IMG/VR virus record: IMGVR_UViG_3300025652_000049
Coordinates: 1 to 64,000 of that record
DNA from: a virus
DNA length: 64,000 nt
Reading direction: 5' to 3' (one strand)
Of this stretch, positions 6,001 through 61,682 are shown piece by piece. A program made the translations under genes and the position numbers. A model generated the notes under the pieces. It saw only the letters and a program-made list of their open reading frames with translations. It did no database searches and was not told where the DNA came from. The first letter of the stretch is position 1, and the number at the start of each line of letters is the position of its first letter.

Positions 6001-9000
6001 CTAAAACAAGACGATATAGGGTAACATCATCATAACGCTCTCTGATATCTTTAACAAGTTCTTTGTTTGCTAACGATGCTTTAACAAGGGCTTGAGTCTC
6101 TGGCGTATTAATACTAAGTTTAAGATATATATGCGACATCTCGTGCATAAAAGTCTTATCCTGATTAGGAGCCTTTTCATCTATAAAAATAGTCGCGGCC
6201 AATGCATGACCTAAACCTTGTGAACCTACAGATTCAAACAAGTTTCTTACTATAATCAATTGCGCTGGGTCATTGGTGTTTGGAAACATTGTCTTAAGAG
6301 AATGATTCACCACAGCCATTGAGTGCCTTCTTGATGGACTAAGTAAGTTATAGGTTGTGTACCTGTTGAGGTAATTATCTAATTCATTCTGAGAAAGATC
6401 TGTTGCCTCAGTAACCTTAATACCTTTTATCTTATTAAGAACGCTTCGAACAAATCTTGTCTCAAGTATGTTTTGAAGCTTAACCTTTCCTTCAGCTCTT
6501 GATTCACGACTATCAAAAGCTACTGTTTCTGAATTGGCTACTTTCTTAGCATTCTTCTTCCAGTTCTTTTTAGCTTTATCAGCCTTAGCCTCTTCAACGC
6601 TTTCTAAATCTGGTTGTTTCTTTTTATTAGTAACCTCATCTTCTAAAAATGCTTGTTCCTCTTTACTTAAATCTTTATCGACTTCAACCTTCTCTTCGTC
6701 TTTATCGTCGGTATCTTCATCACCTTTTTTAGTTCCATCTTCATTAACACCTGGTTTAATTATCGGCCCCTCTGGAGGATCAATAACTGCATCAGTAGAA
6801 GCATCCTTTTCAATCTTTAAAATTTTTCTAGTTATTTCACTTAAAACAGCATCCGGATTATTTGCACGAATTTCTTCTTCCCTAGTAGAAAGCTTTCCTT
6901 CGGACATAATCTTATCAGCGATATCACTTAAAATACCATCTGGCAAAGTTCCTGTCTCTTCAAAGTTTGACCAAACATCATCACCAATAACTTCATTCTC
7001 ATCAACAGTAGTATCGTCTACCATTTGTTCAGCTTCTTGCTGGGCTTGTTCTTGGGTTTTAGGAGTTCCGTATGCTACACCATCTATAATAGTAGTTCCG
7101 CTAGTTTTTTGTTCTTCTACTTTTTCTATCGGGCCTTCAGCTTCTTCTTGAGCTTTAGCTTGTGCTTCTTCTTCTGCTGCAACTTCACCCGCGGCTTCTT
7201 CATCTATTTCAGGAGTTTTAAACTTATCCTGAATAGACTTAGCCATAGCTTTTACTTTGTCTGTAGCATTTGCAAGAGATGGCATTTCAAATATACCTTT
7301 AGCTTTCTTTTCAGCTTTCTCTGCCAAGTCTAATGCTTCAACGGTAATTCCCATTGCGGTAGCTTTTGCTTTCTTTCCTGCGTTTAAAGCACCATCTATA
7401 AACTTTTTACCTTTACTACGCGTATCTCCTTCACCAGTGTACTCCTTCATTTGTTGAGAAGACAATCCACCAATAACCATTTCATTACCAAATTCATCAA
7501 GTACAATTTCAACCTCTAATGGATTTGCTTTTTTTCCTAGTATTAAATTTTCTTGGTTTTGACGTGCCTCAGCTTTTAATATAGAAAGAGCCTTTACTCT
7601 GGCAGTATATATTTGTTGAGTTTCAGAAATACTCTTTTTCTTATCCTTAATCTCTTGAGCACTCTTAGCATCTATTGCATTTATAACCTCAAGCTTTTCT
7701 TCGGCAATAGCTTTATATTCTTCTAATTTTTTATTGAAATAGTTTTCATCAGCAATATTAGTAAGCAATGCTTTCTTACCTTTTACATTTAAACGATCGG
7801 CTTTTTCAGACTTTTCTTTAAAGCCAAAATACATAGCATCTAAATCAGGTATTTGCTCTTCGTTTATATTTCCATTTTCTAAAAGTGAATTACGAAGGTC
7901 TACATATGCTTGGTCACCATATTTTTCATCAATAGCAATATTACCTACTTGATGCTCTATGTGATATTCTTGATAAGCAAGTTCATCTTTAGTTCCTTGC
8001 TTATTTGTTATGTTAGTTAGGTTTTCAATAGAATTATGTAATCTTAAAGCATCATCAGCTTTTTGATTTACAAGTGTGTTTAAATTAAAAGCACCACCAC
8101 TCACAGCACCCATTACACCAGCTAATACTTTAGTTCCTTTATTCTCTTTAGAATTATAGAAATCCATGAATGAACTTACATCTAACAGGTCTGGATGTGG
8201 AACACCAGTCTTATCAGCAACAGCTTTCTTAGAAGCCCACTCTTCAAATGTTTCTTGAAAGGATTCTTCAATTCCCTCAAAAGCCATTTTCTTTGATAAT
8301 CGACCTAAACCTTTTATTATTGGTGCAACATCATAAGTAAATAAACTAGAAGACATTTTTGCTCTAGCAGCAGCAGTTCTAGGTATGCCACCTTTAGACA
8401 TTGGATTAAGACTTTTTAATGCCTTATACCCACCTCCATAAGTTAAACCCCAAGAAGCCATATCAGCAGCAAGCCAAGCGGAATTATTACGCATAGTTCC
8501 AGCTGCCATATCTCCAAGGTCTTCTTCGGAAAACATTTTTACCTTTTCACCCTGTTCATTTGTATAGGTTAGGTCTTTGTTGTTATTAACGACTCCTGCC
8601 GCGTTTAACATACCTGCATAAACATTACTAGCAATACCCCCACCAATTGCACTAGCAGTTGCATTACCTAATGTAGTAAGCCCTATATCAGTTCCTAGCT
8701 TACCCGCAAGACCTGAACCTTTTCCAGCAGCACCAAATATTTCAGCACCTAAAGCAGTCTTTCCAACTTGCCCTGGTAGTTTTGTAACACCTTTCTTTAA
8801 AAGTGATTTAGCAATAGCTGCACCTCTACCCCCAATATATACAGACTGTACAATCTGAGGTATCATACTAGCTATATTCTGACTCCAAAACTTAGGATTG
8901 GTAACCGAACCCCAACTTAAATTTTCATTCTTTAATTCTTCAGGTATGGCGCTTTTAAAGTTTTCAGCAACATCGGTACCAACATCTTGAAGCATTCTAG

Positions 9001-9439
9001 ATAATACCGTTCCATCAGATATAGTAGGATCAACAATAGCACCCGCCATTTGAACCAAATCACCAGTACCTTTGATAATATAATTACCAACACCTTGCAT
9101 TATATTAACTCCTGCTTCTTCCATCCAACCACGAGCACTATACTCTGGACTCCAAGAATCAGGATCCTCTTCTAAGTCTCTAGTGTTTTGCCCAGCAATA
9201 GTACCTAGCTTTTGATTTGAATATATTTCATTATTAACAGCTTCTTGGTCTTGAGCGTTAGCTTGAACGTTATCAGGTAAGGCTAAATTTTCTTGCTCTT
9301 GCCCTTGCCCTTGTTGTTCTTGCATTTGCTGTCCTCTTTCGGCAGGTGAAAAAGACAAGTCTTGTTCTCTTTCTTCTACTGGTGGAGCAGAACCATTTCC
9401 GTTTTTTGAATTATTAAAAATTTCAAAGATATCTGGCAT
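1..9439 (-). CDS. Giant virion-packaged two-barrel RNA polymerase polyprotein with zincin-like domain (>3146 aa, 3' end beyond window)
   Basis: ATG at 9439 (MPDIFEIF...). In-frame motifs read by hand: HEMSH (6131-6145) with downstream LIEEMLA, GTDGAMYI (~3405-3424), AYLKGYT (~3265), SRIPGHG (~2125-2145), GADNDGD (2012-2032). The ORF track lists no ORF in this frame, consistent with no stop before the window edge. Position after the ejection proteins matches crAss-like vRNAP genes. Confidence 0.9.
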   Translation of the reverse strand, partial: MPDIFEIFNNSKNGNGSAPPVEEREQDLSFSPAERGQQMQEQQGQGQEQENLALPDNVQANAQDQEAVNNEIYSNQKLGTIAGQNTRDLEEDPDSWSPEYSARGWMEEAGVNIMQGVGNYIIKGTGDLVQMAGAIVDPTISDGTVLSRMLQDVGTDVAENFKSAIPEELKNENLSWGSVTNPKFWSQNIASMIPQIVQSVYIGGRGAAIAKSLLKKGVTKLPGQVGKTALGAEIFGAAGKGSGLAGKLGTDIGLTTLGNATASAIGGGIASNVYAGMLNAAGVVNNNKDLTYTNEQGEKVKMFSEEDLGDMAAGTMRNNSAWLAADMASWGLTYGGGYKALKSLNPMSKGGIPRTAAARAKMSSSLFTYDVAPIIKGLGRLSKKMAFEGIEESFQETFEEWASKKAVADKTGVPHPDLLDVSSFMDFYNSKENKGTKVLAGVMGAVSGGAFNLNTLVNQKADDALRLHNSIENLTNITNKQGTKDELAYQEYHIEHQVGNIAIDEKYGDQAYVDLRNSLLENGNINEEQIPDLDAMYFGFKEKSEKADRLNVKGKKALLTNIADENYFNKKLEEYKAIAEEKLEVINAIDAKSAQEIKDKKKSISETQQIYTARVKALSILKAEARQNQENLILGKKANPLEVEIVLDEFGNEMVIGGLSSQQMKEYTGEGDTRSKGKKFIDGALNAGKKAKATAMGITVEALDLAEKAEKKAKGIFEMPSLANATDKVKAMAKSIQDKFKTPEIDEEAAGEVAAEEEAQAKAQEEAEGPIEKVEEQKTSGTTIIDGVAYGTPKTQEQAQQEAEQMVDDTTVDENEVIGDDVWSNFEETGTLPDGILSDIADKIMSEGKLSTREEEIRANNPDAVLSEITRKILKIEKDASTDAVIDPPEGPIIKPGVNEDGTKKGDEDTDDKDEEKVEVDKDLSKEEQAFLEDEVTNKKKQPDLESVEEAKADKAKKNWKKNAKKVANSETVAFDSRESRAEGKVKLQNILETRFVRSVLNKIKGIKVTEATDLSQNELDNYLNRYTTYNLLSPSRRHSMAVVNHSLKTMFPNTNDPAQLIIVRNLFESVGSQGLGHALAATIFIDEKAPNQDKTFMHEMSHIYLKLSINTPETQALVKASLANKELVKDIRERYDDVTLYRLVLDEKGNYQELTKGQIANALGFNGAQIDELNDQIAKEVASGDLKTVPLTEQKYLIEEMLAKTLEGPLAANFDMVFTLKNEGRRKRDTKKWWGMLRKRGELIEAETGVDRMLKELAEDKTLPVGNMKDYLFNTFKAVTKGVKFDAYGLDQRARENDSQYVEALNEIQERIKRKATNGRSLKNIFQDEFYEETNDYDDDVEDGISFQNKDFDSHKKSATRILKRFGTIYNKAFRLKHLKATRTQKTNRKNSPILNQELLESVMYNLAIENKSAAAFIYNIENSEIKEIAAFNRFMKKVYPDSNEQLLSGIHFIFSNGKHINGIRTALKADGSYEMVNSLNQREITDTQDVLARVYKERSVKDASGKQVGSDKWNSFLQSVKNIKEGKDTEQDYLNVIDMYRPRNFKYSKVMEQGVLIHKGTMIPIETLISGYIKQNLLYQKVRGTNKRIVGQVNLYEGRLLAEALISTNRKFTNLSTVVNAEGNMEAVKITNNHLTKEVDNMIEFMSADNNGNKPTREVFIDRYSHVSKKQAKLLGKAYEPNLLLGHIYDQFQLGILPTISITHGIQDLQNNKGNTYKNSTSFEQRIDEMLQYVATSRSGNGRKASSYLQSMGAFSDSPRKFYMNMKRHDVKDLFDVLTTPEGIKSFKKEVYDGDGMLDYEFFERDGKFFKKNPVGTHPKAVVQSYTSEITEKEFNNAFNNVLSSSNPKGTISETLKTPSSRKLQFNSDGKLINSVLHMHNELFPDEKQTKAEFKKNLLKGINNNVKFMRENADIFSKKKQFSDYYKDGVLTSEGRNLAAEQYVNSVLNGYYSREIFIPGVKGKAGGIKRFKSNGSPIMSAKNENFKIEAIPIADSIANNSVSGTDGAMYITEKTAQKLVNLGLGVFDMNDGFKLLNASVEKDNPQFAGKLAYLKGYTTIARKGHPLYNILTAREAKYDKQHKDKYGVEPSMDLTDQSFNHIAIAVTQSSDKGSLYPDKFIDENKTTGELTHTDLGSKFTMEALSQDHEGVMEYYDKMFYDKKGNFVGLESYNFGPQQLMDVVKSLSTTPTQMINSVIVGATANGNMDLAIEIQDYISNQKQKAFNEILEKIASGKMEDYHALIESGLNKEDMDQAQRIIFEDGGSLSHPYITEIVTNQLAKTLRVAGNKLLTPGTIAHQKPDVRIKDKLEGYTKNTDGSINPAGIELPRHMSMVSKSGQKPLMARQKMTVYNQAGKGVLYHYNAGDPKKKRETQTHLQDLNAIKYAALKVARSVHGVSTNEEANKFIGEEFNENGVHIGYHVKGQTVIASRIPGHGPSSTGVFEVMAYNDGDGNQVMVSSEFNDIIGADNDGDALYIQHKGDNKKYSEWNQAFDKMTKYWTSSAMAEQIQAKMDIKASTEAVVKKVEQTFKNNQEYHLPGSPEQRAADYDNTLVAKNNVGPIFNLHKVANLYAAYEIELTRPVSINGAVYNRFRDAEVGQNSRNQKSAELANIQLDNASHHFADKLGIDSFNIAQATLLVNLGVSLEEVALILNSEPAKVYGKLKSKMKNIYNEESNYSNVFDQAYKALKIKKAKTPKLSIDTSIDKKTGKSKILNRSQFGNVLELFRMLEEMNSETQKVSKVMGGHKKIHVNPHVLEKELDRYDEVMAAPKTKKEIAKRTLKFTPEFRTNPDLKNYENVAREVLSHLKVLNPVYQGATNKVLNSLVNKIGADRLTTSQVEDISNSIKVFQTARLLGLNNFNMDEAVALLTPGNPKSIFVELQRYLDPLQKGITAVDGNNQETVSDYDNSILFNQALNLSLSGNSQYISANRSFSGPTMNPEERKAAQNEFAELPNNIKDALILYDLVNNNWSGPQSISIFFDEETNSLINYASNQMSQNKDQAISGNVLRKLETNIALKMAASRNNPLAKITLKKGLNVKNKNEALPDIMNSPTVKAVLKEGKGMFVNVKSSTGESVLYHIPKFTLDEKHLINSENNNTAKETRIREIANRTAYYVPNNLKKIKHLPVGAIDIALIADENNS

Positions 9440-46522: not shown

Positions 46523-46554
46523 CAAATCTACGCCTATTAGACGTAATCCGCAAA
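46523..46554 (-). promoter_or_regulatory. Bacteroidota sigma70 promoter (TTTG-N20-TAGATTTG) containing palindromic operator TACGCC-N5-GACGTA
   Basis: -33 and -7 elements with canonical spacing upstream of the GroES-like gene. Confidence 0.7.
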
Positions 46555-47465: not shown

Positions 47466-47587
47466 ATTTCTTATTCTTTAATCTGAAACATTCCTCAGTA
47501 AAACCTCGCATCAATAAACGATTCCGAATACGCCTCTCTAAACATAATTCTACCATAACACCACTATTTATATTAATATCTATTAAG

Positions 47588-47677: not shown

Positions 47678-47713
47678 TCCCCCTACCATAATCTTGTTTA
47701 TGGGGTAGGGGGG
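47678..47713. repeat. GC-rich inverted repeat at the strand-switch point
   Basis: CCCCCTACC-ATAA...TTAT-GG-GGTAGGGG. Confidence 0.7.
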
Positions 47714-47722
47714 TCTCTATTA

Positions 47723-47738
47723 AAAACTCATAAAAGAG
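47723..47738 (+). promoter_or_regulatory. Repeated early motif AAAACTCATAAAAGAG, copy 1
   Basis: Recurs at 48198, 50541, 53971 and 56274. Confidence 0.7.
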
Positions 47739-47781
47739 AGTCCTAATCGTTAGTGTCTCTTTATAATTTAATTTATTTACT

Positions 47782-47940
47782 ATGTCTTATTTATCATCAC
47801 TTCGTACCAAAGTATCGACCCTTAATGCACAACCTGTGCCTAACTCTTACACCAAGCTTGACATCTTTCGTGTTAAAGCTACAGTTGTTGCTGGCTTTAC
47901 TGTGGGGTATATTCAAGGATCATTAACTAAAACTAAATAG
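47782..47940 (+). CDS. Small early protein, 52 aa (not in ORF track)
   Basis: MSYLSSLRTKVSTLNAQPVPNSYTKLDIFRVKATVVAGFTVGYIQGSLTKTK; AT-rich leader; ends 4 nt before the next ATG. Confidence 0.6.
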   Translation: MSYLSSLRTKVSTLNAQPVPNSYTKLDIFRVKATVVAGFTVGYIQGSLTKTK

Positions 47941-47944
47941 ACTC

Positions 47945-48199
47945 ATGGCTATCAAGAAATCTACTACCATTGCATCAGCTGTCGCTGCTGCTGGAACTAC
48001 TGCATCCATCTGGCATGCCTCTACTGCCACTACTATGGCTGTCACATCTACTGCTGGCGCTACCGCCGGCTCAGGCACAATGGTCTTTAAGACTGTTGCC
48101 GCAGGCTTGGGCTCCAAGCTTCTCATCGGTGCTTTATGCATCGGTGCTACTGCTGCCGTCACCTACATGGTTTACACTCACCTAGAGAGTAAATCATAA
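47945..48199 (+). CDS. Ala/Thr/Gly-rich small membrane protein
   Basis: 84 aa with a hydrophobic C-terminal helix. Confidence 0.65.
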   Translation: MAIKKSTTIASAVAAAGTTASIWHASTATTMAVTSTAGATAGSGTMVFKTVAAGLGSKLLIGALCIGATAAVTYMVYTHLESKS

Positions 48200-48212
48200 A
48201 CTCATAAAAGAG
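48198..48212 (+). promoter_or_regulatory. Repeated early motif, copy 2
   Basis: AAACTCATAAAAGAG overlapping the stop codon. Confidence 0.65.
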
Positions 48213-48224
48213 AACTTTTGTTCA

Positions 48225-48265
48225 TCCTCTTGCTCATCCTCTTGGATAGGCAAGGGGCTTTTTCT
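48225..48265 (+). terminator. Terminator-like hairpin
   Basis: CCTCTTGC...GCAAGGGG followed by CTTTTTCT. Confidence 0.55.
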
Positions 48266-48269
48266 AATT

Positions 48270-48318
48270 CTGTCGTGTAGTATGTGCTACACCTGATGAG
48301 GTTGTTAGACCGAAACAG
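48270..48318 (+). ncRNA. Type III hammerhead ribozyme
   Basis: CUGUC (GUC cleavage triplet, cut after 48274) - stem I GUGUAG/CUACAC - CUGAUGA - stem II GGUU(GUUA)GACC - GAAA - CAG closing stem III. Confidence 0.88.
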
Positions 48319-48337
48319 TTACTTAATACTTATTCTA

Positions 48338-48613
48338 ATGGTACATTCCTTCTCATCCGACTATAAGAACGGCAACATCACTATCACCTTCACCGATGGT
48401 GATGAGGTTAAGACGATCTTCTTTGTTAATAGCACTGTCGCATACGACATCGCTTATAACACACTTCAATGGCGATATGATATGTCTGGTTACACAGAAT
48501 ATCAAGGAGACTCTGGCTACTTAAAAGCCATCACACACATGCGCAAATGTGGTCTCTCATTCATGAAGCATCCACAAGATTGCGACATGTTTATTCCCCA
48601 CTATAAAGCATGA
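48338..48613 (+). CDS. Hypothetical early protein (91 aa)
   Basis: ATG 48338 just downstream of the ribozyme; the ORF-track start at 48284 lies inside the ribozyme. Confidence 0.65.
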   Translation: MVHSFSSDYKNGNITITFTDGDEVKTIFFVNSTVAYDIAYNTLQWRYDMSGYTEYQGDSGYLKAITHMRKCGLSFMKHPQDCDMFIPHYKA

Positions 48614-48652
48614 CATCATGTCAATTTATAGCCTTCAAACTACATCTGTAGA

Positions 48653-48714
48653 GTAAGCGAGATCTGTTTACCCAAATCTATTAATCTATTTTGGGTAAGC
48701 AGGATCTGTTTACC
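48653..48714 (+). repeat. Two copies of 20-nt GTAAGCRRGATCTGTTTACC hairpin motif
   Basis: Copies at 48653-48672 and 48695-48714; third copy at 52297-52316. Confidence 0.75.
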
Positions 48715-49180
48715 GCCCGATTACGATGATGCCAATGTTTACAGGGCTTCACACGTTTTACCTAAAAAAGTCGTATAGTATATACTATATATACCGACGG
48801 ACTAGGACGTGGCAGAGACTGACAGAGTGTGCTCAATCAGTATGTGTCCTCTTAGTCTAACTTGGTAAACCACTGCGGTTCTCTGCGGTGTTATACTAAT
48901 GTTATCTGTCTTATTATAAGCTGTCATTGTTTGTTATTAAAAAGGCGTAGTTATGTGCCTACTATGGTGCATTACTATTTTGTTATTTATAAACATCTTT
49001 TACTTTATTAACGTAGTGATTGCTTGCGGTCACTATGTTGATTTATTTAAGTTACTGCGGTAGTTTACTATCGCTTCGTCTTCGTTCGGTGCTACGCACC
49101 TCTCTCATCCTCGCTAGGGGATATTATTTAATTTATTATTTATTTATTTAAAATCATCTGATTCCAAGGATGTAAAATAC

Positions 49181-49477
49181 TTGGTCACTATTGTTATGAT
49201 ATCTATATCGCTTGATGATGTTGTTATTGCGAAGCAATCTGCTACTGGTTATGCACCTCTATGTATGGAGGTTGCTAACGTTGCAATATATCTTCATCGT
49301 GAGAGAACACATGGGTTCTCTAACTACTCTTTCAGGTTATGTCCTGACGACAACTGCTATTATGGTAAGATTCGAGGCTCTGTTCAAGGGCTTGAGCTTG
49401 CTATGGCAGATATTGAATTCTTTGGTATTTCTATCAAAGACTTCGACAGATACCTACGTCCTCTTTTAGACGACTAG
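49181..49477 (+). CDS. Hypothetical early protein
   Basis: 98-aa ORF, start uncertain. Confidence 0.55.
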   Translation: MVTIVMISISLDDVVIAKQSATGYAPLCMEVANVAIYLHRERTHGFSNYSFRLCPDDNCYYGKIRGSVQGLELAMADIEFFGISIKDFDRYLRPLLDD

Positions 49478-49484
49478 GTATCAA

Positions 49485-49534
49485 TGCATGTATGGTATGA
49501 TTACCTAGAGGTTCGATTCCTCTTCATGCAGCTA
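49485..49534 (+). ncRNA. tRNA-like mini-element (acceptor-like stem, one short hairpin, canonical T-arm)
   Basis: TGCATG/CATGCA stem, GGTA-TGAT-TACC hairpin, AGAGG-TTCGATT-CCTCT T-arm, then GCTA. Confidence 0.62.
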
Positions 49535-49576
49535 ACTTTAAATCTAAAAGGTTGTGACTTACCACACACATTTATT

Positions 49577-49948
49577 ATGAGAAAATTATCTTTATTACGT
49601 GAATCTCTTATGCAGTCTAAGACTGCTGCTACTTCTATGGAAACCTTCAACAACTTAAGGTTTACTAGTCTATCCTCTGCTTATGAACATAAGATTGTTG
49701 CTGACAAAATCAACTCAAACAATTACAAAACTATGCTTACTGCTAGTGGTATTGTTTGGGGTGCTGCTATTGGAACTTATGTTGCAGGCTCAACACTACT
49801 TGTTGCAGGCGCAGTATTAGCAGGAACTACTGTTGTTGGCACTGCTACTGCTCTTGCTGTTAACAACAGGCGTATTATTAAAAACTCTAATGAGTTTTTG
49901 AATAACGGAGATTACATTACTCCTGAGCCTATAACTATTAATCTTTAA
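49577..49948 (+). CDS. Early membrane protein with glycine-zipper-like helices
   Basis: Start MRKLS after ACATTTATT leader; GAAIG/AGAVLAG/VGTATA hydrophobic stretch. Confidence 0.65.
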   Translation: MRKLSLLRESLMQSKTAATSMETFNNLRFTSLSSAYEHKIVADKINSNNYKTMLTASGIVWGAAIGTYVAGSTLLVAGAVLAGTTVVGTATALAVNNRRIIKNSNEFLNNGDYITPEPITINL

Positions 49949-49958
49949 TCTATAAACT

Positions 49959-50114
49959 ATGTACAATCCTCGTCTTATTATCTCAGCTATGAGAACTTAT
50001 GGTTGCTCTGCTATTGAAGCTATTCAATGGCTTGGGCAACCTCATGAAAATGCATTCTTATTTACTAACGGCAATGTTCATATTCCAGAGTGCTGGAATA
50101 CTGATGCCATTTAA
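49959..50114 (+). CDS. Small early protein, 51 aa (not in ORF track)
   Basis: MYNPRLIISAMRTYGCSAIEAIQWLGQPHENAFLFTNGNVHIPECWNTDAI; fills the gap between neighbours, TAAACT leader. Confidence 0.6.
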   Translation: MYNPRLIISAMRTYGCSAIEAIQWLGQPHENAFLFTNGNVHIPECWNTDAI

Positions 50115-50126
50115 AACCTATCTATT

Positions 50127-50369
50127 ATGGATTCTTATTTCCTTGCACAGTTATTACGTCTAAAGATACACCTAATCACTATCAATGATTGTGATGATGT
50201 TGTTGCCTACTATACTGAAAAGTTTGTCAATACTGATAAACACGTCTTCATTTATACTCATGGGTACTTCAGTACCAATTCTAATAGTTGGGTTAATAAA
50301 ACCCATATCGTCACCTCCAGTGAGGATCTTGAGTATCACCTAAAGAACTTTGGTAAATCTTTTTACTAA
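50127..50369 (+). CDS. Hypothetical early protein
   Basis: 80-aa ORF in the operon. Confidence 0.6.
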   Translation: MDSYFLAQLLRLKIHLITINDCDDVVAYYTEKFVNTDKHVFIYTHGYFSTNSNSWVNKTHIVTSSEDLEYHLKNFGKSFY

Positions 50370-50383
50370 AAACTATATAAACT

Positions 50384-50551
50384 ATGAATTATAATATTCC
50401 TGTTATTGAATTAGACCTATCCATTCGGCTTCTCAATGTGTTAAAGCGTAATGGTATATTCTTTTTGTCTGACATTAAAAACATCGATAATGTTAAATGG
50501 CTTGACAAACGTACCAAAGATGAGCTATTGTTAGCTCTCAAAAACTCATAA
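50384..50551 (+). CDS. RNA polymerase alpha-CTD-like miniprotein, 55 aa (not in ORF track)
   Basis: PVIELDLSIRLLNVLKRNGIFFLSDI...WLDKRTKDELLLAL resembles alpha-CTD (LELTVRSANCLKAEAI..IGDL...LGKKSLTEIKDVL). Confidence 0.65.
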   Translation: MNYNIPVIELDLSIRLLNVLKRNGIFFLSDIKNIDNVKWLDKRTKDELLLALKNS

Positions 50552-50556
50552 AAGAG
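50541..50556 (+). promoter_or_regulatory. Repeated early motif, copy 3
   Basis: AAAACTCATAAAAGAG, identical to copy 1. Confidence 0.7.
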
Positions 50557-50559
50557 TAC

Positions 50560-50629
50560 CACGTATTAAAGAGTTTCTTGCGTGTCTAAATAACGAAGCC
50601 TCTTAACCCTAGCCCTCTTTTGGGGGCTA
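50560..50629 (+). ncRNA. Candidate H-type pseudoknot plus hairpin in a 5' leader
   Basis: CACGTA/TGCGTG stem; its loop AAGAGTTTC can pair with GAAG-C-CTCTT; AAATA linker; TAGCCCTC-TTTT-GGGGGCTA hairpin. Confidence 0.45.
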
Positions 50630-50674
50630 ACATTGCGCGATGTCAAGCGCATTATAAGTGTGACCACATTTATT

Positions 50675-51004
50675 ATGAAAGCACCTGCTTTTAAATCAAT
50701 CCTAGCTACGGCTATTGGGTATGCCTCTGGCGATGCCCACATTATTGTTCAATCAATGGCTGACGGTATCGTTCGCTTTGAGTCTAAGCTTGTTAACAAG
50801 CTGACCAAAGAATCACGTCACGACATTGAAAAACAACGTCATCAGCACACAGTTGAGACACAAGAGCTTGTTAAAGCCACTACTGCTAGAGCTGTAGGCT
50901 TTATCGGAGCGATATTCAAAGCTTCTACTAAACCATTAGTTAGTGGTGAGAATATAAATTTCGAGGAAGGACAAACCATTTATGCTCCTGAATCAAATGC
51001 GTAA
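50675..51004 (+). CDS. Hypothetical early protein
   Basis: Start MKAPAF after ACATTTATT leader. Confidence 0.6.
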   Translation: MKAPAFKSILATAIGYASGDAHIIVQSMADGIVRFESKLVNKLTKESRHDIEKQRHQHTVETQELVKATTARAVGFIGAIFKASTKPLVSGENINFEEGQTIYAPESNA

Positions 51005-51377
51005 CTCTCACAAGGGAGCTATATTATTTATAGCCATCTGTATATTGGCATTCCTAATTGGCAGTTATATCTTAACTGCTACATTCTTTGGAGTGCTAAT
51101 ATTAGTTGGTTTAATAGTGCTCATCGAAAGCATCCCACCTTTACGGTGGTTGATGGCAAAGACCTCAAGAGTCGTAGACATATGCATCTTTGTATTCTCC
51201 ATTATAGCAATGGCATCTTATGGCTTAAACATCACCGCTGCGCTTACCGTAGCTGGTGTTGGTTACACATTGATATATGCACCCCATTTAAGGGAGCAGA
51301 GTATCATTAATAAAAACAAAACTAACCGATCCGCAGCGGCCGGTTATAAATCTAAATTTAATCACAATCCAAAATAA
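50997..51377 (+). CDS. Multi-pass membrane protein (about 4 TM)
   Basis: Long hydrophobic segments. Confidence 0.7.
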   Translation: MRNSHKGAILFIAICILAFLIGSYILTATFFGVLILVGLIVLIESIPPLRWLMAKTSRVVDICIFVFSIIAMASYGLNITAALTVAGVGYTLIYAPHLREQSIINKNKTNRSAAAGYKSKFNHNPK

Positions 51378-51385
51378 GTATTATT

Positions 51386-51721
51386 ATGAGAACTAAATTC
51401 GTACCAGTTACATTAGTAACATCTTCGGACCAGCAAGACGCTATAATGTCTTCAACATTTCCAATCTTCAGCTCTAATGAGTTTAAAGAAACAAGATCTT
51501 CTGTCTTAGAATTCTTAGACTCATGTGTCTATATCACTAGACCTATGAGCATACCTAACCAGTATTCTAAATTTATCAATCGATACTTTCCTGTCTCTGA
51601 AGCAGGAGTAGAATCACTGATAAAGTTTCGTAAGCATAACCGTCAATCGATTAAGCAACGAAACAAAGGCGCTGTTAAAGCGCAAGCTATGTTTGTTCGT
51701 GATATAAAACAAACAGCTTAA
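51386..51721 (+). CDS. Hypothetical protein
   Basis: 111-aa ORF. Confidence 0.6.
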   Translation: MRTKFVPVTLVTSSDQQDAIMSSTFPIFSSNEFKETRSSVLEFLDSCVYITRPMSIPNQYSKFINRYFPVSEAGVESLIKFRKHNRQSIKQRNKGAVKAQAMFVRDIKQTA

Positions 51722-51763
51722 AAACAACAAAGCCCAGTTCTACAGAGAGCTGGGCTTGTTTTC
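51722..51763. terminator. Bidirectional intrinsic terminator
   Basis: AAGCCCAGTTCT/AGAGCTGGGCTT stem with A and T tracts on either side. Confidence 0.75.
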
Positions 51764-51845
51764 ATATATGAAGATAATGTCAATAACCTAAAATATATGA
51801 ACACTACAAATATATGCTATTTATACTTACGAGTTATAACTAGTA

Positions 51846-52250
51846 CTAAAATTCTTTGTGTGTCCATCTACCTAATGGTACATGATATTTACATTCTTTT
51901 TTAAGATTATCCATATCAGGCTTTCCAATGTAATGCATTGCCCAAGGTAGTACTACAAAGTATCTAACCGCATCAATGGTATATTCATTCATAAAGCCAA
52001 TACCTATTAACTTGTTTTTGTCTCGGTGAAATGACTGCTTGTGTTTATAATTATAACTCAAGTAGTCGCCGGGCAAGAACATCTTTTCTACCGTATGACC
52101 TTGCTTTGGTCTACGGTTCCAGACATCCCTCAACAGCTTGTTAGAAGTGGCTGATAGTTGATACATATTATCAATCAATTCATCACTGATAACTCGTGCG
52201 TACTTACTACTGTATTCTTTGAGAAGGGTTCGGACTATTTGTTGTTTCAT
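51846..52250 (-). CDS. Hypothetical protein, lone reverse-oriented gene
   Basis: 134 aa; own TATATTTG -7 element at 52278-52285. Confidence 0.65.
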   Translation of the reverse strand: MKQQIVRTLLKEYSSKYARVISDELIDNMYQLSATSNKLLRDVWNRRPKQGHTVEKMFLPGDYLSYNYKHKQSFHRDKNKLIGIGFMNEYTIDAVRYFVVLPWAMHYIGKPDMDNLKKECKYHVPLGRWTHKEF

Positions 52251-52296
52251 ATTGCTTATTCTAAGTTATTGACACTACAAATATATATAATTCTCG

Positions 52297-52316
52297 GTAA
52301 GCAAGATCTGTTTACC
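52297..52316 (+). repeat. Third copy of GTAAGCRRGATCTGTTTACC motif
   Basis: GTAAGCAAGATCTGTTTACC upstream of gene 52355. Confidence 0.75.
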
Positions 52317-52354
52317 GTACTACATTTATTAATTAATTATTTAATACATTTATT

Positions 52355-52780
52355 ATGAGAAATTTAAGCTTAATGATTGTCGGATTTAAAATAACTAGCT
52401 ATGTATCATCAACACGTAAAGCTAATGTTAGCGTGGTCTTCGGAGAAGAAGGAGACTTGAAGCGTAAGCTATTCAAGAACATGACCATTAGTGGTCTATT
52501 GCGTTCACGTCTGGATAGACAAACGCAAGGATATGAGGTAGGCACTCAATATTTATCTGTAAACAATAGTACAGATTGGAAAGAGAATCCTTTTCAACTA
52601 ATTCGCTATGGTTCTAAAGAATCTCCTGAGTACATGCTTGACTGCGTAGATAAACGCAACAGCAGTAAGAAGGTATCTCAAAGCCCTATCGATGGTAGTA
52701 ATGTTATTACCTATAAGAACAGATGGCACAAGCCAGAGTTTTACTTACGTTACAGAGATAATACTAAAGCTACTGTATAA
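52355..52780 (+). CDS. Hypothetical protein
   Basis: 141-aa ORF. Confidence 0.65.
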   Translation: MRNLSLMIVGFKITSYVSSTRKANVSVVFGEEGDLKRKLFKNMTISGLLRSRLDRQTQGYEVGTQYLSVNNSTDWKENPFQLIRYGSKESPEYMLDCVDKRNSSKKVSQSPIDGSNVITYKNRWHKPEFYLRYRDNTKATV

Positions 52781-52895
52781 TGAAGCATCTAAATAAGACC
52801 GAAAAGGTCTACATAGCCAGCATCGTAGTTATATCTACGGTGCTTGTCGCTGTATGCGCATACAAAATCATTATTCATAATCTAAACATACTCTA

Positions 52896-53408
52896 ATGGC
52901 AAAGCCACTATACCGAATACTAAGTCCTGATGGTTTTGATATTTATCAAAACAAGCTATATCTTAAGTCTGAGATTAACGATGCTTATCAAAAATGGAGC
53001 GATGGCTTCAAACATCAAGGCTATTATAGTTTATTAAGAACTAAAATACCACTTGACAAACTCAAAGACTATTGTATAATAAATAAAACAAGAGCCAAGC
53101 GTTACAAATCTAAAGAGATTTTGAAGCTTGATGATTTGTATGAACTACAAGACTCATTCTGTAGTTCTGGTATTACATTCCAATACAGGTTAACTGCCGG
53201 TGAACTTAAATGGGCAAGACATATTAATGGTAAATACCTTATTGCTGATTTTGTTTTCGAAAATATTGACGAAAACAACATACTTACTTTCTGGGATCCT
53301 GAAGAACTTAAACAAGTTATCGAGGACGATGGCATGCCTCCGAAAGCTGTAATGCTTTCTGATGATACGGCTTTACAGAAATTATTCTTTTGGTTATCGA
53401 ACAATTAA
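52896..53408 (+). CDS. Hypothetical protein
   Basis: 170-aa ORF; LSPDGF...QGYYS N-terminal module. Confidence 0.65.
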   Translation: MAKPLYRILSPDGFDIYQNKLYLKSEINDAYQKWSDGFKHQGYYSLLRTKIPLDKLKDYCIINKTRAKRYKSKEILKLDDLYELQDSFCSSGITFQYRLTAGELKWARHINGKYLIADFVFENIDENNILTFWDPEELKQVIEDDGMPPKAVMLSDDTALQKLFFWLSNN

Positions 53409-53419
53409 ATCTTAAACTT

Positions 53420-53752
53420 ATGGAAACTCTATCAATTGTTTTGACAATACTTTACATTTTAATGAACCTCATCTATATGATTAAAAGCCACAGGTTTTTA
53501 GGTTGTATTTATGGAAAATACAATTCACCCATACATATTCTTTCATTTGTTCTTATATTAGCATACTTCTATGTGATTGTGTTTCGAACAGATTGGTATT
53601 TGTATAATATCATTAGCATTTTAATAGGAGCTCTAATAGGTGCCTGGGCTACATTCTTTGCGAAGCGATTCATAAAACATAACGATCTTGTAGAAAATGC
53701 TTATAAGAATTATACTCATATTAAAAAAGATGATAATGAAATTAACAGCTAG
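53420..53752 (+). CDS. Membrane protein (3 TM)
   Basis: Hydrophobic helices; start METLS. Confidence 0.65.
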   Translation: METLSIVLTILYILMNLIYMIKSHRFLGCIYGKYNSPIHILSFVLILAYFYVIVFRTDWYLYNIISILIGALIGAWATFFAKRFIKHNDLVENAYKNYTHIKKDDNEINS

Positions 53753-53981
53753 GCAAATAATAACCAGCAAGGTCTTACATATCAACGGAACTAATCGCAC
53801 ATATTCAATGACTCCAGAAGGTCAAGTTTATAATCGTTTTACCAAAAAGATTCTCAAAGAGCTTGAGCATTCTTCTGGTAGTGGAAACAAATACGTTTCT
53901 ATTCGAATAGCAAAAGATAAAACTAGCTTCAAGGTTTATATTGATAAATGGCGTAATGAATTGTTTCCTAAAAACTCATAA
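53736..53981 (+). CDS. NUMOD4-like small DNA-binding protein
   Basis: YSMTPEGQVYN...KILK....GNKYVSI pattern; no HNH domain. Confidence 0.5.
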   Translation: MKLTARQIITSKVLHINGTNRTYSMTPEGQVYNRFTKKILKELEHSSGSGNKYVSIRIAKDKTSFKVYIDKWRNELFPKNS

Positions 53982-53985
53982 AATG
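53971..53985 (+). promoter_or_regulatory. Repeated early motif, copy 4
   Basis: AAAACTCATAAAATG. Confidence 0.6.
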
Positions 53986-54146
53986 AAATACATGCATTCT
54001 AAAGCCCTAACTATAGGCAAAAGGATACTAGGGTATCTTTTAACGTCAGGATGGTTTATAATAGCCATCTACTGGATGTCGAGAGCATATATCTGTTAAG
54101 ATATATTCCTTATCTTTGAATATATTAATATATAAATCTATTCAAA

Positions 54147-54518
54147 ATGAGTGCATCTGCAAGAAAAGATTACGGAGCTGGAGCCGTAATCGACCCTTCA
54201 CAAGAAACGGTGAAGCGTATTAACAACATGAATAACCCATATAGTGTTCAGCAACTAGGGTTAGACAAAAGTGATGATAACGGAGCATCGCCTAAATACA
54301 TCGCGATTACATCCGAATCATTAGATGCTTTAACAGCTAACACCAGAGTATTACTTGGTAACCGAGAGGGAGTTGTTAAAAGCGTAAATACACCAGTGGC
54401 AACGCTAGTGGATTGTGTTATCACTATTCGTGATAAAGAAAAAGTTGATATTGACACAACCTACACAAAGGCTGAACTGTTGGCATCACCAATTATATTC
54501 TTTGCGACGAACGCATAG
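54147..54518 (+). CDS. Hypothetical protein in a stand-alone transcription unit
   Basis: TATCTTTG -7 element at 54111-54118; terminator at 54541-54568. Confidence 0.65.
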   Translation: MSASARKDYGAGAVIDPSQETVKRINNMNNPYSVQQLGLDKSDDNGASPKYIAITSESLDALTANTRVLLGNREGVVKSVNTPVATLVDCVITIRDKEKVDIDTTYTKAELLASPIIFFATNA

Positions 54519-54540
54519 AATACATTTTAACTTATGAATT

Positions 54541-54568
54541 AAGCTACCATTCTTTGGTGGCTTTTTTT
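54541..54568 (+). terminator. Intrinsic terminator
   Basis: AAGCTACCA-TTCTT-TGGTGGCTT followed by a T tract. Confidence 0.7.
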
Positions 54569-54586
54569 ATGCAATAAATTATAGCA

Positions 54587-55129
54587 ATGAGTCAAACAAT
54601 TAAAAAGTTAGATCTTCTCAATGAGAAGACAACAGTAGACAACTACCCTTACGGTAGAAAACAATGCGAAATGACATTCGCAGTTGAGCATAAAACAGGT
54701 AAAGGATTTCGTACTTGGAGACAATCCAAGAACCCTACAACTGGTAGATTAAACAAACCAAAGCTTAGTACATACTACAGTTTCTTGGCAATGTATATGA
54801 ATGAAGATAATCACGTAAAATATTACGCGAATAATATTCGAGGTATTGATGATGTTAAAAATCTACAGCAATGGCTTAAAGTACACGCTGATCAGATTAA
54901 TTTAACAGACGAAGAATCACAAACCTTATGGTGTACCATTGTAGCATCGTATAAAATTAGCATGGCTTGGTTCGACTGCAAGGAGGGATTTACTATTAAA
55001 GATGCACTAGAGGCTTCCCCAATCAAAGACCTCATCACTTGCTACGGTTCTCATGCACCTATCCAACAATTAATTGATGTAGAACTAGACCGACCTGAAA
55101 TGGAGGCTATGCGTAAAACTAAATCGTAA
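54587..55129 (+). CDS. Hypothetical protein
   Basis: 180 aa; VDNYPYG...E...GKGFR...NP.TGR.NKPK.STY motif. Confidence 0.65.
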   Translation: MSQTIKKLDLLNEKTTVDNYPYGRKQCEMTFAVEHKTGKGFRTWRQSKNPTTGRLNKPKLSTYYSFLAMYMNEDNHVKYYANNIRGIDDVKNLQQWLKVHADQINLTDEESQTLWCTIVASYKISMAWFDCKEGFTIKDALEASPIKDLITCYGSHAPIQQLIDVELDRPEMEAMRKTKS

Positions 55130-55130
55130 A

Positions 55131-55637
55131 ATGAAAAACCTCATAATAGTTTTATTGTTTACTTGCATGCAAGTAATGCAATCACAGAATGCTGTTGGTT
55201 TTAGCGCAAGCTTAGACAACAAGCTGACATTCCTAGAAGACAATCATGGCAATATGCCATTTACTCTTGACTTATCTACAAAGATGTCGCTACAAGGGTA
55301 TCAGAAAAAGCTAGGTTACTTACAAATTGCTATTAAATATGAATATGCAGATTTGTCTAGTGGAGACTTCCATAGATATGCAGCAGAAGTAGGATACGTA
55401 TTTACCAATGGAGCATTAGGATTAATGCCTTCGGTTGGTTACGGATTTATAGGGCGCGAAAATAGAGGCTCTACTCAATCTTGGGAGTTTGGTATAATGC
55501 CATCGTTCTTAATAATCCCTAACTTAAAGCTTATTGTTGGATTTGTTTGGACAGAGAGAACAGACCTTCTAGGTCAATACAGATTTAATATTAACACAGG
55601 CTTACAATTTGATATAGCCTTAAAAGACTACAGATAA
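55131..55637 (+). CDS. Outer-membrane beta-barrel-like protein
   Basis: Signal peptide ending SQ; about eight amphipathic beta-strands with aromatic girdles (EVGYVF, SVGYGF, NTGLQF). Confidence 0.6.
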   Translation: MKNLIIVLLFTCMQVMQSQNAVGFSASLDNKLTFLEDNHGNMPFTLDLSTKMSLQGYQKKLGYLQIAIKYEYADLSSGDFHRYAAEVGYVFTNGALGLMPSVGYGFIGRENRGSTQSWEFGIMPSFLIIPNLKLIVGFVWTERTDLLGQYRFNINTGLQFDIALKDYR

Positions 55638-55639
55638 CT

Positions 55640-55969
55640 ATGGACAATTTAATATTTATATTAATAGCAATAATATCATTCGCGTTAGGCTTTACAGTAG
55701 CCTCAAGAATGATGAGAGAAAGAATGGAAGAATCTATTGATGCTTTAGACGATTACTATCTTAAGGAAAACCAGAGCTTGATCAGTAAGCTCCATAAAAT
55801 GAGATTGAGAAGAAATGAAATAGTATCATTTGTAGACAGCAGTGAGTTTGCTGACCTGCTCCATAAGTTTCGACATGGAGACAGGGCTAACATTAAACAA
55901 AATGCTGACAGATTCAGAGCATTAAAAATATCATTAATTTCTAAACTAAACGATTATAATGAGAACTGA
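55640..55969 (+). CDS. Single-TM hypothetical protein
   Basis: N-terminal TM. Confidence 0.6.
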   Translation: MDNLIFILIAIISFALGFTVASRMMRERMEESIDALDDYYLKENQSLISKLHKMRLRRNEIVSFVDSSEFADLLHKFRHGDRANIKQNADRFRALKISLISKLNDYNEN

Positions 55970-56609
55970 AACGATAGTGATATACGAGTTTCATGAGCTT
56001 GACATACCTGTTCAACAAAGTCTTGTTGATAAAGTTGAGGTATCCACTGAGTTTATATATCAAGACGCAGAAGAAACTGTCAAATCTTTTTGTAAAGCAT
56101 TTGACGTTAAAACACACATAAACAATTGGCTTCAATTTGCTTGTTGGAATCCTTATCTAGATCACGAATATGAACAAGAAGTTTGTGAGCTTACAGGTAT
56201 GCGATTAAGAACATATCTAATTAATAACTATGGACATGTTTTGTACAAAGGTAAATACTATGGTAACCTTTCTAAAACTCATAAAAATGGAACTCCTATA
56301 CTTGTATGTAAAGCACATCCGGCTGGAATGAGACATATCAAAAGATATTCAAAAGTTATTTTTGAAAGAGATTGTAGTTTAACTGGAGTTTGTTATGACA
56401 TTTCTATAATGAAACCAATTTATAATTTCATTGACAACCCTAATGAAGTTGATACTATCGATGTATTATTTGACAATTGCTTCACTTCACTTGAAATAGA
56501 CATTAAAGGTCAAGAAGATTATTATCATACAGATGATGCTAAAGCGGAGCAAGTAGAGATTAACGATAACGAATATTTAAAAGATGGAACAATATGGATA
56601 AACGAATAG
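55959..56609 (+). CDS. Hypothetical protein
   Basis: 216 aa; IYEFHEL...CSLTGVCYD...EYLKDG. Confidence 0.65.
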   Translation: MRTETIVIYEFHELDIPVQQSLVDKVEVSTEFIYQDAEETVKSFCKAFDVKTHINNWLQFACWNPYLDHEYEQEVCELTGMRLRTYLINNYGHVLYKGKYYGNLSKTHKNGTPILVCKAHPAGMRHIKRYSKVIFERDCSLTGVCYDISIMKPIYNFIDNPNEVDTIDVLFDNCFTSLEIDIKGQEDYYHTDDAKAEQVEINDNEYLKDGTIWINE

Positions 56610-61465: not shown

Positions 61466-61682
61466 AACTCCTAAACGATGTTTCCTTGTTGATGGCAAGA
61501 GAGTAAGTATCATAACTTCCACCTCACATACATACAATGTGAGGTTTGTGAAGTCTGGTATATTCATGGATGTAAAGAAGTGCTACGTAAAGACGTGGTA
61601 CCCTAAACCCAAGAAGGTAATACCAAAGAAACCAATTATTAAAACCGAGATTAAAAACTCACAAACTGAATTAAAATTTTAA
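61458..61682 (+). CDS. Small basic hypothetical protein
   Basis: Likely GTG start overlapping the upstream stop. Confidence 0.45.
   Translation: MNETPKRCFLVDGKRVSIITSTSHTYNVRFVKSGIFMDVKKCYVKTWYPKPKKVIPKKPIIKTEIKNSQTELKF

What the first reader, a model, noticed from the sequence alone, without database searches (positions are those of the whole stretch)
47723..56286. Repeated AAAACTCATAAAA(GAG) motif: candidate virion-RNAP promoter or antitermination site
Five same-strand copies were found (47723, 48198, 50541, 53971, 56274), all in the early region; the first lies immediately after the strand-switch hairpin. Three overlap stop codons, and two unrelated ORFs both end in KNS*, so the constraint appears to be on the nucleic acid. 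It does not resemble the host TAnnTTTG promoter. Copies 1, 3 and 4 have short complementary flanks (CTCT/AGAG, GCTCT/AGAGT, TTTC/GAAA). Several copies precede hairpins, which leaves a nut/boxA-like role open.
Basis: partly seen in the sequence, partly recalled or inferred. Interest (0 to 1): 0.72.

Follow-up and report, generated by a model that had tools for sequence, protein, structure and literature searches.

The report
Repeated early-promoter-like motif in crAss-related phage
A 12-13 base motif repeated five times on one strand at the start of this phage's early genes belongs to a signal conserved at the same place in at least 20 related phages, and it is most likely the early promoter read by the phage's own giant RNA polymerase, a signal never yet defined for crAss-type phages.

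Summary
AAACTCATAAAA occurs five times, all on the + strand between 47.7 and 56.3 kb, and nowhere else in the 76.4-kb genome (about 0.01 expected).

Copy 1 is part of a module at the head of the early arm in 20 related phages (40-68% terminase identity). The module is a GC-rich hairpin, then a lineage-specific core of about 13 nt, then an invariant AAAAGAGAGTC. In closer relatives a small hairpin follows, and its stems differ between phages.

Several relatives repeat their own core downstream, never on the opposite strand. Fifteen of 23 secondary copies lie in non-coding DNA or at stop codons (background 18%, p = 7e-7).

In a 92-97% identical TARA relative, copies 1-4 are intact and gene-cassette junctions fall at copies 2 and 3.

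The giant late-arm ORF folds like the phi14:2 crAss-type virion RNA polymerase (Foldseek E = 1e-16).

Best reading: a phage-specific early promoter, probably for that polymerase, that also serves as a cassette junction as PeSLs do in T4-type phages. No transcript data could be obtained, so function is inferred. The nut/boxA idea gains little support.

The scan had noted this motif before only on this same genome.

The parts
47679..47713 (+). GC-rich hairpin (CCCCCTACC...GGGGTAGGGGGG) at the divergent strand switch, at a near-constant distance upstream of the invariant block
   Evidence: Read directly. The equivalent C-run/TTTTGGGG/G-run element is present in all 20 aligned relatives.
47723..47735 (+). 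Copy 1 of the core AAAACTCATAAAA, positions -13 to -1 if the G at 47736 is taken as +1
   Evidence: It aligns with the lineage-specific cores of relatives.
47732..47742 (+). AAAAGAGAGTC block: AAAAGAGAGT is invariant in 20 related phages and the final C is kept in at least 90%. Proposed melting and initiation region.
   Evidence: Alignment A2, invariant columns A96-T105 and C106 at 90% or more.
47733..47762 (+). Small hairpin (AAAGAGA...TCTCTTT with inner CTAA/TTAG) that would sit at the 5' end of the proposed transcript; the first ATG is at 47782
   Evidence: Fold, -7.5 kcal/mol. By eye, closer relatives have hairpins at the same place with different stem sequences. RNAalifold gave no consensus structure.
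48197..48209 (+). Copy 2 (TAAACTCATAAAA); its first TAA is the stop codon of ORF 47945-48199
   Evidence: The block of about 95 nt running from the upstream hairpin to the end of the terminator is identical in relative L299, while both flanks differ.
48238..48263 (+). Terminator-like hairpin plus T-run, 29 nt after copy 2
   Evidence: z = -3.2.
50368..50382 (+). Decayed motif copy (AAAAACTATATAAAC) directly before the ATG of the 55-aa ORF 50384-50551
   Evidence: Alignment with L299, where one intact motif stands at this position and the ORF is absent.
50541..50553 (+). Copy 3; it encodes the KNS* end of ORF 50384-50551 and is preceded by hairpin 50522-50537
   Evidence: Identity with L299 starts exactly at the 5' edge of the motif.
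53971..53983 (+). Copy 4; it encodes the KNS* end of ORF 53697-53981, 163 nt before the next ORF
   Evidence: Conserved in L299.
56274..56286 (+). Copy 5, in frame (KTHK) inside ORF 55959-56609
61654..61666 (+). Weak copy (AAAACTCACAAAC, 2 mismatches) next to the stop codon of ORF 61440-61682, 40 nt before the 574-aa gene. Similar weak copies lie at gene junctions at 55136 and 57258.
   Evidence: These may owe their resemblance to the A-rich composition of gene junctions.
2..9439 (-). Giant ORF (more than 3146 aa, cut by the contig end) carrying a crAss-type two-barrel RNA polymerase; the catalytic DNDGD is at 2012-2026
   Evidence: Invariant R-x-P-x-x-G (TRIPxHGP) and D-x-D-x-D columns in 32 homologues. 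AlphaFold model with pLDDT 81. Best PDB match is 6VR4, the phi14:2 virion RNAP, E = 1.3e-16, followed by RDR2 and QDE-1.

Best explanation
The motif is the recognition core of a phage-specific early promoter. In copy 1 the layout is: GC-rich hairpin, 9-nt spacer, core AAAACTCAT, an A-tract (AAAA) that would melt, then GAGAGTC, where transcription would start. A small hairpin at the 5' end of the RNA follows, and the first early gene begins 46 nt downstream.

The other copies would be secondary promoters. They sit right at or after the stop codon of the preceding gene and drive the next block of small early genes in the same direction.

The enzyme that reads them is most probably the crAss-type RNA polymerase carried in the giant late-arm protein, delivered with the DNA as in phi14:2.

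Because the same short sequence stands between many early genes, it also acts as a site where gene cassettes are gained, lost or swapped by recombination.

Shown here: the repetition, the strand bias, the positions, the conservation, the lineage-specific cores, the cassette junctions and the polymerase fold. Inferred: promoter activity, the start point at the G of GAGAG, and which polymerase reads it.
For: (1) There are 5 exact 12-mers, all on the + strand within 8.6 kb at the head of the early arm, and none elsewhere in the genome.

(2) Copy 1 aligns with a module found at the divergent switch of 20 phages with 40-68% terminase identity. AAAAGAGAGT is invariant and lies at a near-constant distance from an upstream GC hairpin.

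(3) The roughly 13 nt before GAGAG differ between lineages, and several genomes repeat their own version downstream: G001 TTAAAGTATG x5, G003 GAACATCAA x3, G004 AATTCAA[CA]AA x6, G005 AAAACAAATT[AC]A x7. None of these patterns occurs on the opposite strand.

(4) Fifteen of 23 secondary copies lie in non-coding DNA or within 12 nt of a stop codon, against an 18% background (p = 7e-7). They lie typically 43-190 nt before the next ORF.

(5) No host-type TAnnTTTG box lies near any copy.

(6) In the 92-97% identical TARA scaffold L299, copies 1-4 are intact.

(7) The giant ORF has invariant TRIPxHGP and DxDGD motifs, and its model matches the phi14:2 virion RNAP best.

(8) In L119 a hairpin plus T-run ends directly before the core, which argues against the motif being carried on an upstream transcript.

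(9) P23-45 offers a precedent: its virion two-barrel RNAP uses a conserved AT-rich motif at 14 mapped start sites (10.1101/2022.12.01.518664).
Against: There are no transcript 5' ends.

In phi14:2, the only crAss-like phage studied this way, early transcripts showed no common upstream motif (10.1101/2020.03.07.982082). Its genome lacks the AAAAGAGAG module and has no strongly repeated motif.

Copy 2 lies 29 nt upstream of a strong terminator-like hairpin. That is an odd place for a promoter unless the phage enzyme ignores the hairpin.

Copy 5 lies inside a conserved gene.

In the more distant relatives only the first copy was found, though only 3-8 kb of each early arm was available.

Virion packaging of the giant protein is inferred by analogy.
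Confidence: 0.55

Rival explanations
1. The motif acts in the RNA. It would be an antitermination (nut/put-like) or processing signal in the early transcript. It would modify the polymerase so that it reads through downstream terminators, or mark cleavage points that separate the early mRNAs.
For: All copies are on the sense strand. Copy 2 stands 29 nt before a strong terminator-like hairpin. Copies 1-3 are followed within a few nt by small stems. Most copies lie at gene ends. A hammerhead ribozyme candidate lies 58 nt downstream of copy 2, which suggests RNA processing in this region.
Against: Apart from copy 2, the downstream regions are not more stable than shuffled sequence. The core does not resemble boxA, judged by eye against the consensus recalled from memory. 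Copy 1 sits at the very head of the arm, and no host-type promoter was recognised upstream of it. In L119 a hairpin with a T-run lies just before the core. A lineage-specific core next to an invariant A-tract and GAGAG resembles a promoter that combines a specificity region with an initiation region more than it resembles a structured RNA.
Confidence: 0.15
2. The motif is only a recombination linker: a short shared sequence between early-gene cassettes that persists because it mediates gain and loss of genes, with no role in transcription.
For: In L299 the 55-aa ORF 50384-50551 is absent, and identity resumes exactly at the 5' edge of copy 3. In G000 that ORF is flanked by a decayed copy and an intact copy. 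The block of about 95 nt around copy 2 is identical while both flanks differ. One 78.9-kb contig carries the module twice, and the two copies diverge exactly 6 nt after AAAAGAGAGTC; two other contigs end at that same base.
Against: A linker alone does not explain the strict single orientation, the invariant AAAAGAGAGT at the head of the arm across phages as distant as 40% terminase identity, or the near-constant spacing to the hairpin. In T4-type phages the comparable repeats (PeSLs) are promoters as well (PMC2839356, PMC4122927, listed and described here from my own knowledge).
Confidence: 0.1
3. The motif is a binding site for a phage-encoded DNA-binding regulator, or a promoter for host RNA polymerase redirected by a phage factor or an alternative sigma factor, rather than for the giant phage polymerase.
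For: Lineage-specific cores fit any co-evolving protein-DNA pair. The early arm encodes many small proteins of unknown function.
Against: Non-palindromic regulator sites need not all share one orientation, yet no core pattern occurs on the opposite strand in six genomes. There is no resemblance to the host -33 and -7 elements. The first early promoter must work before any phage protein has been made, which favours an injected enzyme.
Confidence: 0.12

Closest known systems
PeSL (promoter-early stem-loop) cassettes of T4-type phages (PMC2839356, PMC4122927; found, content from my own knowledge)
   Same: Both are a short repeated intergenic signal among small early genes of unknown function. In both, insertions, deletions and replacements between close relatives have their junctions at the repeats. 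Stem-loops are often adjacent: 8 of 29 upstream windows fall in the most stable decile, p = 0.006.
   Different: PeSL promoters are host sigma-70 early promoters. This motif has no host-type promoter boxes and is lineage-specific. The stem-loop is not a constant part of the repeat.
AT-rich promoters of the virion (tape-measure-fused) two-barrel RNA polymerase of Thermus phage P23-45 (10.1101/2022.12.01.518664)
   Same: [quoted passage not shown] Both phages carry a single-polypeptide two-barrel RNAP in the virion. In both, the motif is shared by related phages that have the polymerase.
   Different: The P23-45 sites are backed by mapped start sites and ChIP-seq, whereas these have no transcript data. 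The polymerases are only distantly related, and the sequences were not compared.
Coliphage N4 virion RNAP early promoters (PMC4496689; known to me, not read here)
   Same: Both give several co-oriented promoters at the head of the early region for an injected giant polymerase. The overall strategy matches, as the Crassvirales review notes (PMC10136315).
   Different: N4 promoters are DNA hairpins with a 5-7 bp stem and a 3-nt loop, read by a T7-like single-subunit enzyme. Here the conserved part is a linear A-rich sequence, hairpins are variable and lie further upstream, and the enzyme has a two-barrel fold.
T7-group phage promoters (textbook knowledge)
   Same: Both are a compact signal of about 17-20 nt with a lineage-specific upstream part, an AT-rich stretch before the start, and a purine-rich conserved start region (TATA/GGGAGA in T7, AAAA/GAGAGTC here). 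Both are followed by a hairpin at the 5' end of the RNA, are repeated in one orientation, and often lie at gene ends.
   Different: The polymerase class differs, there is no sequence similarity, and initiation at GAGAG has not been shown.
phi14:2 (crAss-like) early transcription by gp66 (10.1101/2020.03.07.982082)
   Same: The polymerase fold is the same, and so is the genome layout, with divergent early and late arms.
   Different: No common motif was found upstream of phi14:2 early transcripts, and its genome has no AAAAGAGAG module. Terminase identity between this clade and crAss-like phages is only about 24%.

Membership tests
Host (Bacteroidota) sigma-A promoter | -7 box TAnnTTTG with a -33 TTTG about 19-21 nt upstream | tested here: not met
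   No TAnnTTTG lies within 60 nt of any of the five copies. The genome-wide scan places none of the paired boxes at a copy.
N4-type virion RNAP promoter | DNA hairpin with a 5-7 bp stem and a 3-nt loop just upstream of the start | tested here: not met
   The core is linear and unpaired in the folds. Upstream hairpins are enriched but variable in size and position.
N4-type virion RNAP promoter | Read by a T7-like single-subunit virion RNAP | tested here: not met
   The giant ORF has a two-barrel crAss/QDE-1-type fold.
N4-type virion RNAP promoter | Several co-oriented copies at the head of the early region | tested here: met
Lambda-type nut site | boxA-like linear sequence followed by a boxB hairpin, carried on a transcript that starts upstream | tested here: inconclusive
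   The core is unlike boxA by eye. Small stems follow copies 1-3 only. No upstream promoter was recognised for copy 1. RNA data are lacking.
Intrinsic terminator | GC-rich stem followed by a T-run on the transcribed strand | tested here: not met
   The motif is A-rich and unpaired. Terminator-like sites lie beside some copies (48238-48257; 47679-47713 upstream of copy 1) but are separate elements.
PeSL-like promoter/cassette-junction repeats | Repeated intergenic signal among small early ORFs of unknown function | tested here: met
PeSL-like promoter/cassette-junction repeats | Indel and replacement junctions between close relatives coincide with the repeats | tested here: met
   Junctions lie at copy 3 (exactly at the motif edge) and around the copy 2 block in L299. 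A branch point lies 6 nt after the AAAAGAGAGTC block of the first copy in another lineage.
PeSL-like promoter/cassette-junction repeats | The repeat contains a functional early promoter | not testable with these tools
Promoter of a crAss-type virion RNAP | The phage encodes a two-barrel RNAP with a DxDxD catalytic loop in a giant late-arm protein | tested here: met
Promoter of a crAss-type virion RNAP | Rifampicin-resistant initiation at the motif by that enzyme | not testable with these tools
   This needs infection or in vitro transcription. No consensus is known for any crAss-type vRNAP to compare with.

The most novel reading that the evidence does not exclude
The module (lineage-specific core of about 9-13 nt, then an A-tract, then the invariant GAGAGTC) is the so far undefined promoter of crAss-type virion RNA polymerases in this roughly 80-kb clade. 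Its specificity co-evolves with the polymerase. The same element is the junction at which early, probably anti-host, gene cassettes are exchanged.
Probability: 0.4. Interest if true: 0.75.

Novelty: new variant of a known kind. Interest (0 to 1): 0.62.

Why it matters
Which DNA signal crAss-type virion RNA polymerases recognise is an open question. The one biochemical study found no motif upstream of early transcripts, and the enzyme was active only on single-stranded DNA. The 2023 Crassvirales review does not use the word promoter at all.

This work gives a short, precisely bounded candidate with an invariant start region in 20 genomes and natural specificity variants. The question therefore becomes testable with synthetic templates and a recombinant polymerase, without needing a cultured host.

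It also shows that a promoter-linked cassette-shuffling pattern known from T4-type phages recurs in an unrelated phage group.

Tried and rejected
- **Searches that found nothing.** Megablast of the early region against GenBank phages found nothing. An exact-peptide search with the 844-aa protein found nothing in IMG/VR; that protein turned out to be a DarB-like helicase/methylase.
- **Exact motif in public collections.** The exact 16-mer gave only single, chance matches in IMG/VR. The 12-mer with one mismatch is not enriched in five relatives, which is what led me to look for lineage-specific versions. Four of five metagenome hits to the 20-mer are unrelated DNA.
- **Consensus folding.** RNAalifold on the module alignment gave no consensus structure. 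The statements that stems differ between phages rest on inspection only.
- **Own core versus other phages' cores.** The test at 2 or fewer mismatches is noisy because of the A-tracts. I relied instead on near-exact cores.
- **Contig ends near the module.** I considered these as evidence for physical genome ends and rejected the idea. The ends are scattered. One is a 127-nt assembly overlap. Others are explained by an assembly branch just after the module and by G-runs.
- **DFDxD motif.** The motif expected from crAss phages is absent. The catalytic loop here is DNDGD.
- **Giant ORF by sequence.** PHROGs, Pfam and PDB sequence searches gave nothing.
- **phi14:2.** It has no comparable module.


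Full report
**What the window is.** The window is bases 1-64000 of a 76,423-bp IMG/VR phage contig estimated 94% complete.
- Genes left of about 47.4 kb run leftward. They include the terminase, portal, major head protein, a GroEL-like gene and very large virion-type proteins.
- Genes right of 47.75 kb run rightward. First come about 9 kb of small ORFs of unknown function. Then follow a DarB-like helicase/methylase, DnaB, a UvrD-like helicase and a 5'-3' exonuclease.
- The terminase is only about 24% identical to those of crAss-like phages. It has many closer relatives (40-83%) on contigs of 76-85 kb, so this is a distinct clade.

**The observation.**
- AAAACTCATAAAA is exact at 47723, 50541, 53971 and 56274, and has one mismatch at 48197. 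All are on the + strand, against 0.01 expected.
- The 12-mer occurs 5 times forward and 0 times reverse in the whole genome, and it is the genome's most repeated 12-mer.
- Copy 1 lies 9 nt after a GC-rich hairpin in the divergent intergenic region and 46 nt before the first early ATG.
- Copies 2-4 overlap stop codons, and two ORFs end in KNS* encoded by the motif. They open non-coding gaps of 86-163 nt.
- Copy 5 is in frame inside a gene that matches phrog_10310.
- Three weaker copies, each with 2 mismatches, lie at other gene junctions (55136, 57258, 61654). They may owe part of their resemblance to A-rich junction composition.

**Comparative evidence, first copy.** From a terminase alignment I fetched 78 related loci. 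At the divergent switch of these phages there is a conserved non-coding module. It consists of a C-run/TTTTGGGG/G-run hairpin region, a near-constant spacer, about 13 variable nt, and then AAAAGAGAGTC.
- In an alignment of 20 phages the ten bases AAAAGAGAGT are invariant, although terminase identity to G000 falls to about 40%.
- The G000 motif is the variable part plus the A-tract: AAAACTCAT-AAAA-GAGAGTCC.
- Its counterparts are AAAATTCAT (L119), GAAACTCAA (G002), GAAATTCAA (G004), AAAACACAA (L125), GAACATCAA (G003) and AAGTATGAA (G001).
- In the closer relatives a hairpin begins at +2 to +4 of GAGAGTC, and its stem sequences differ from phage to phage. This is by inspection only, because RNAalifold found no consensus structure.
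- The module is not a known Rfam family.

**Comparative evidence, dispersed copies.** I fetched the early arms of five complete relatives. Several genomes repeat their own core downstream: G001 x5, G003 x3, G004 x6, and G005 (a more distant subgroup with a different module) x7. L147 has three and L182 two.
- None of the six core patterns occurs on the opposite strand.
- Of 23 secondary copies, 15 lie in non-coding DNA or within 12 nt of a stop codon, against an 18% background (binomial p = 7e-7).
- Six of the seven G005 copies lie 43-97 nt before the next ORF.
- Stable hairpins in the 36 nt upstream are enriched but not universal: 8 of 29 fall in the lowest decile, p = 0.006.
- Downstream, only copy 2 of G000 is followed by a significantly stable hairpin.

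**A close relative.** A metagenome scan with the first-copy 20-mer found TARA scaffold L299, which is 92-97% identical over the region and mosaic.
- Copies 1-4 are all intact there.
- Around copy 2, about 95 nt are identical, running from the upstream hairpin through the motif to the end of the terminator. Both flanks differ, and the following 325 nt of G000 (a hammerhead candidate plus an ORF) are absent in L299.
- At copy 3, the 55-aa ORF 50384-50551 is absent from L299, and identity resumes exactly at the 5' edge of the motif. In G000 that ORF is preceded by a decayed motif (50368-50382) and ends in the intact one. So the motif marks cassette junctions.
- In another lineage, one contig carries the module twice, with divergence starting 6 nt after AAAAGAGAGTC. 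Two independent contigs end at that same base.

**The polymerase.** The giant ORF (2-9439, minus strand, cut by the contig end) has no DFDxD and no Pfam, PHROG or PDB sequence match.
- Aligned with its homologues in G002 and G004 it shows a conserved IGxDNDGDxLxIQ.
- In 32 homologues, R685, P687, G690, D723, D725 and D727 of the folded segment are invariant. From my knowledge, this recalls the R-x-P-x-x-H and NADFDGD pair of the catalytic double-psi beta-barrel.
- An AlphaFold model of residues 1750-2900 (pLDDT 81, pTM 0.79) matches the phi14:2 virion RNAP best (6VR4, E = 1.3e-16, TM 0.52), followed by RDR2 and QDE-1.
Packaging itself is inferred from the gene's place in the structural arm and from analogy.

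**Interpretation.** Five features fit a compact promoter made of a specificity region and an initiation region, as in the T7 group and as reported for the P23-45 virion RNAP:
- the position at the head of the early arm;
- the single orientation;
- intergenic placement before blocks of early genes;
- an invariant A-tract plus purine start region next to a lineage-specific core;
- the absence of host promoter boxes.

The cassette junctions add a second role like that of PeSLs in T4-type phages.

I put this reading at 0.55. The rivals are an RNA-level signal (0.15), a regulator site or redirected host polymerase (0.12) and a pure recombination linker (0.10).

Three points weigh against the promoter reading. 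There are no transcript data. phi14:2 shows no early motif and lacks the module. Copy 2 sits just before a terminator-like hairpin.

**Novelty.** No promoter consensus for a crAss-type virion RNAP is reported in the literature I could search. The kind of element, a phage-polymerase promoter that doubles as a cassette junction, is known. This would be a new variant of it.

Noticed in passing
window 48267-48321 (+): A type III hammerhead ribozyme candidate scores 32.3 bits (E = 0.0014), below Rfam's gathering score of 48.5. It has an intact CUGAUGA...GAAAC core. The ATG of ORF 48296-48613 lies inside that core. The whole 325-nt block (48265-48589) is absent from the 92-97% identical TARA relative L299.
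   Followed up: partly
window 49568, 50666, 52346, 63454 (+): A second repeated motif, ACATTTATTATG, occurs four times. Each copy ends in an ATG that is, or could be, an ORF start codon. It may be a translation-start context or a promoter for a nearly leaderless mRNA (TAcaTTTA resembles the host -7 box).
   Followed up: no
window 2-9439 (-); catalytic loop at 2012-2026: The giant RNAP-bearing protein belongs to a family of about 88 cluster representatives, mostly 3,700-4,350 aa long. Their catalytic loop is DxDGD (DNDGD here), not the DFDxD described for crAss-like phages. No sequence library recognises it; only the fold does.
   Followed up: yes
L255 and L279 (both ends of IMGVR_UViG_3300027751_000009); L158, L159: The module stands at both ends of a 78.9-kb contig, and the two copies diverge exactly after AAAAGAGAGTCTTTTAT. 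Two contigs from other samples stop at that same base. This suggests co-existing strains that differ in their first early genes.
   Followed up: partly
relatives G004 (arm 8673-8760) and G002 (arm 9126-9206); arm coordinates count from just upstream of the terminase start, early strand: Both relatives carry three tandem repeats of about 34-35 nt in the early arm, 1.5-2 kb after the first promoter-like copy. In G004 each repeat is a hairpin (TGTAGCCT...AGGCTACA). G000 has no counterpart.
   Followed up: no
window 43772-45430 (-) and 57279-59813 (+): The late arm encodes a GroEL-like chaperonin (phrog_5725, E = 1e-117). The early arm encodes an 844-aa DarB-like helicase/methylase that is about 40% identical to proteins of Ruegeria, Serratia, Klebsiella and Pseudomonas phages.
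   Followed up: no
L299 3731-5765: The TARA relative has about 2 kb at the start of the late arm, next to the strand switch, with no counterpart in G000. It lies between G000 positions 47494 and 47500.
   Followed up: no
window 46523-46554 (-): A full host-type promoter match (TTTG-N20-TAGATTTG) lies just upstream of ORF 46164-46499. This suggests that late-arm genes use the host polymerase, in contrast with the early arm.
   Followed up: no
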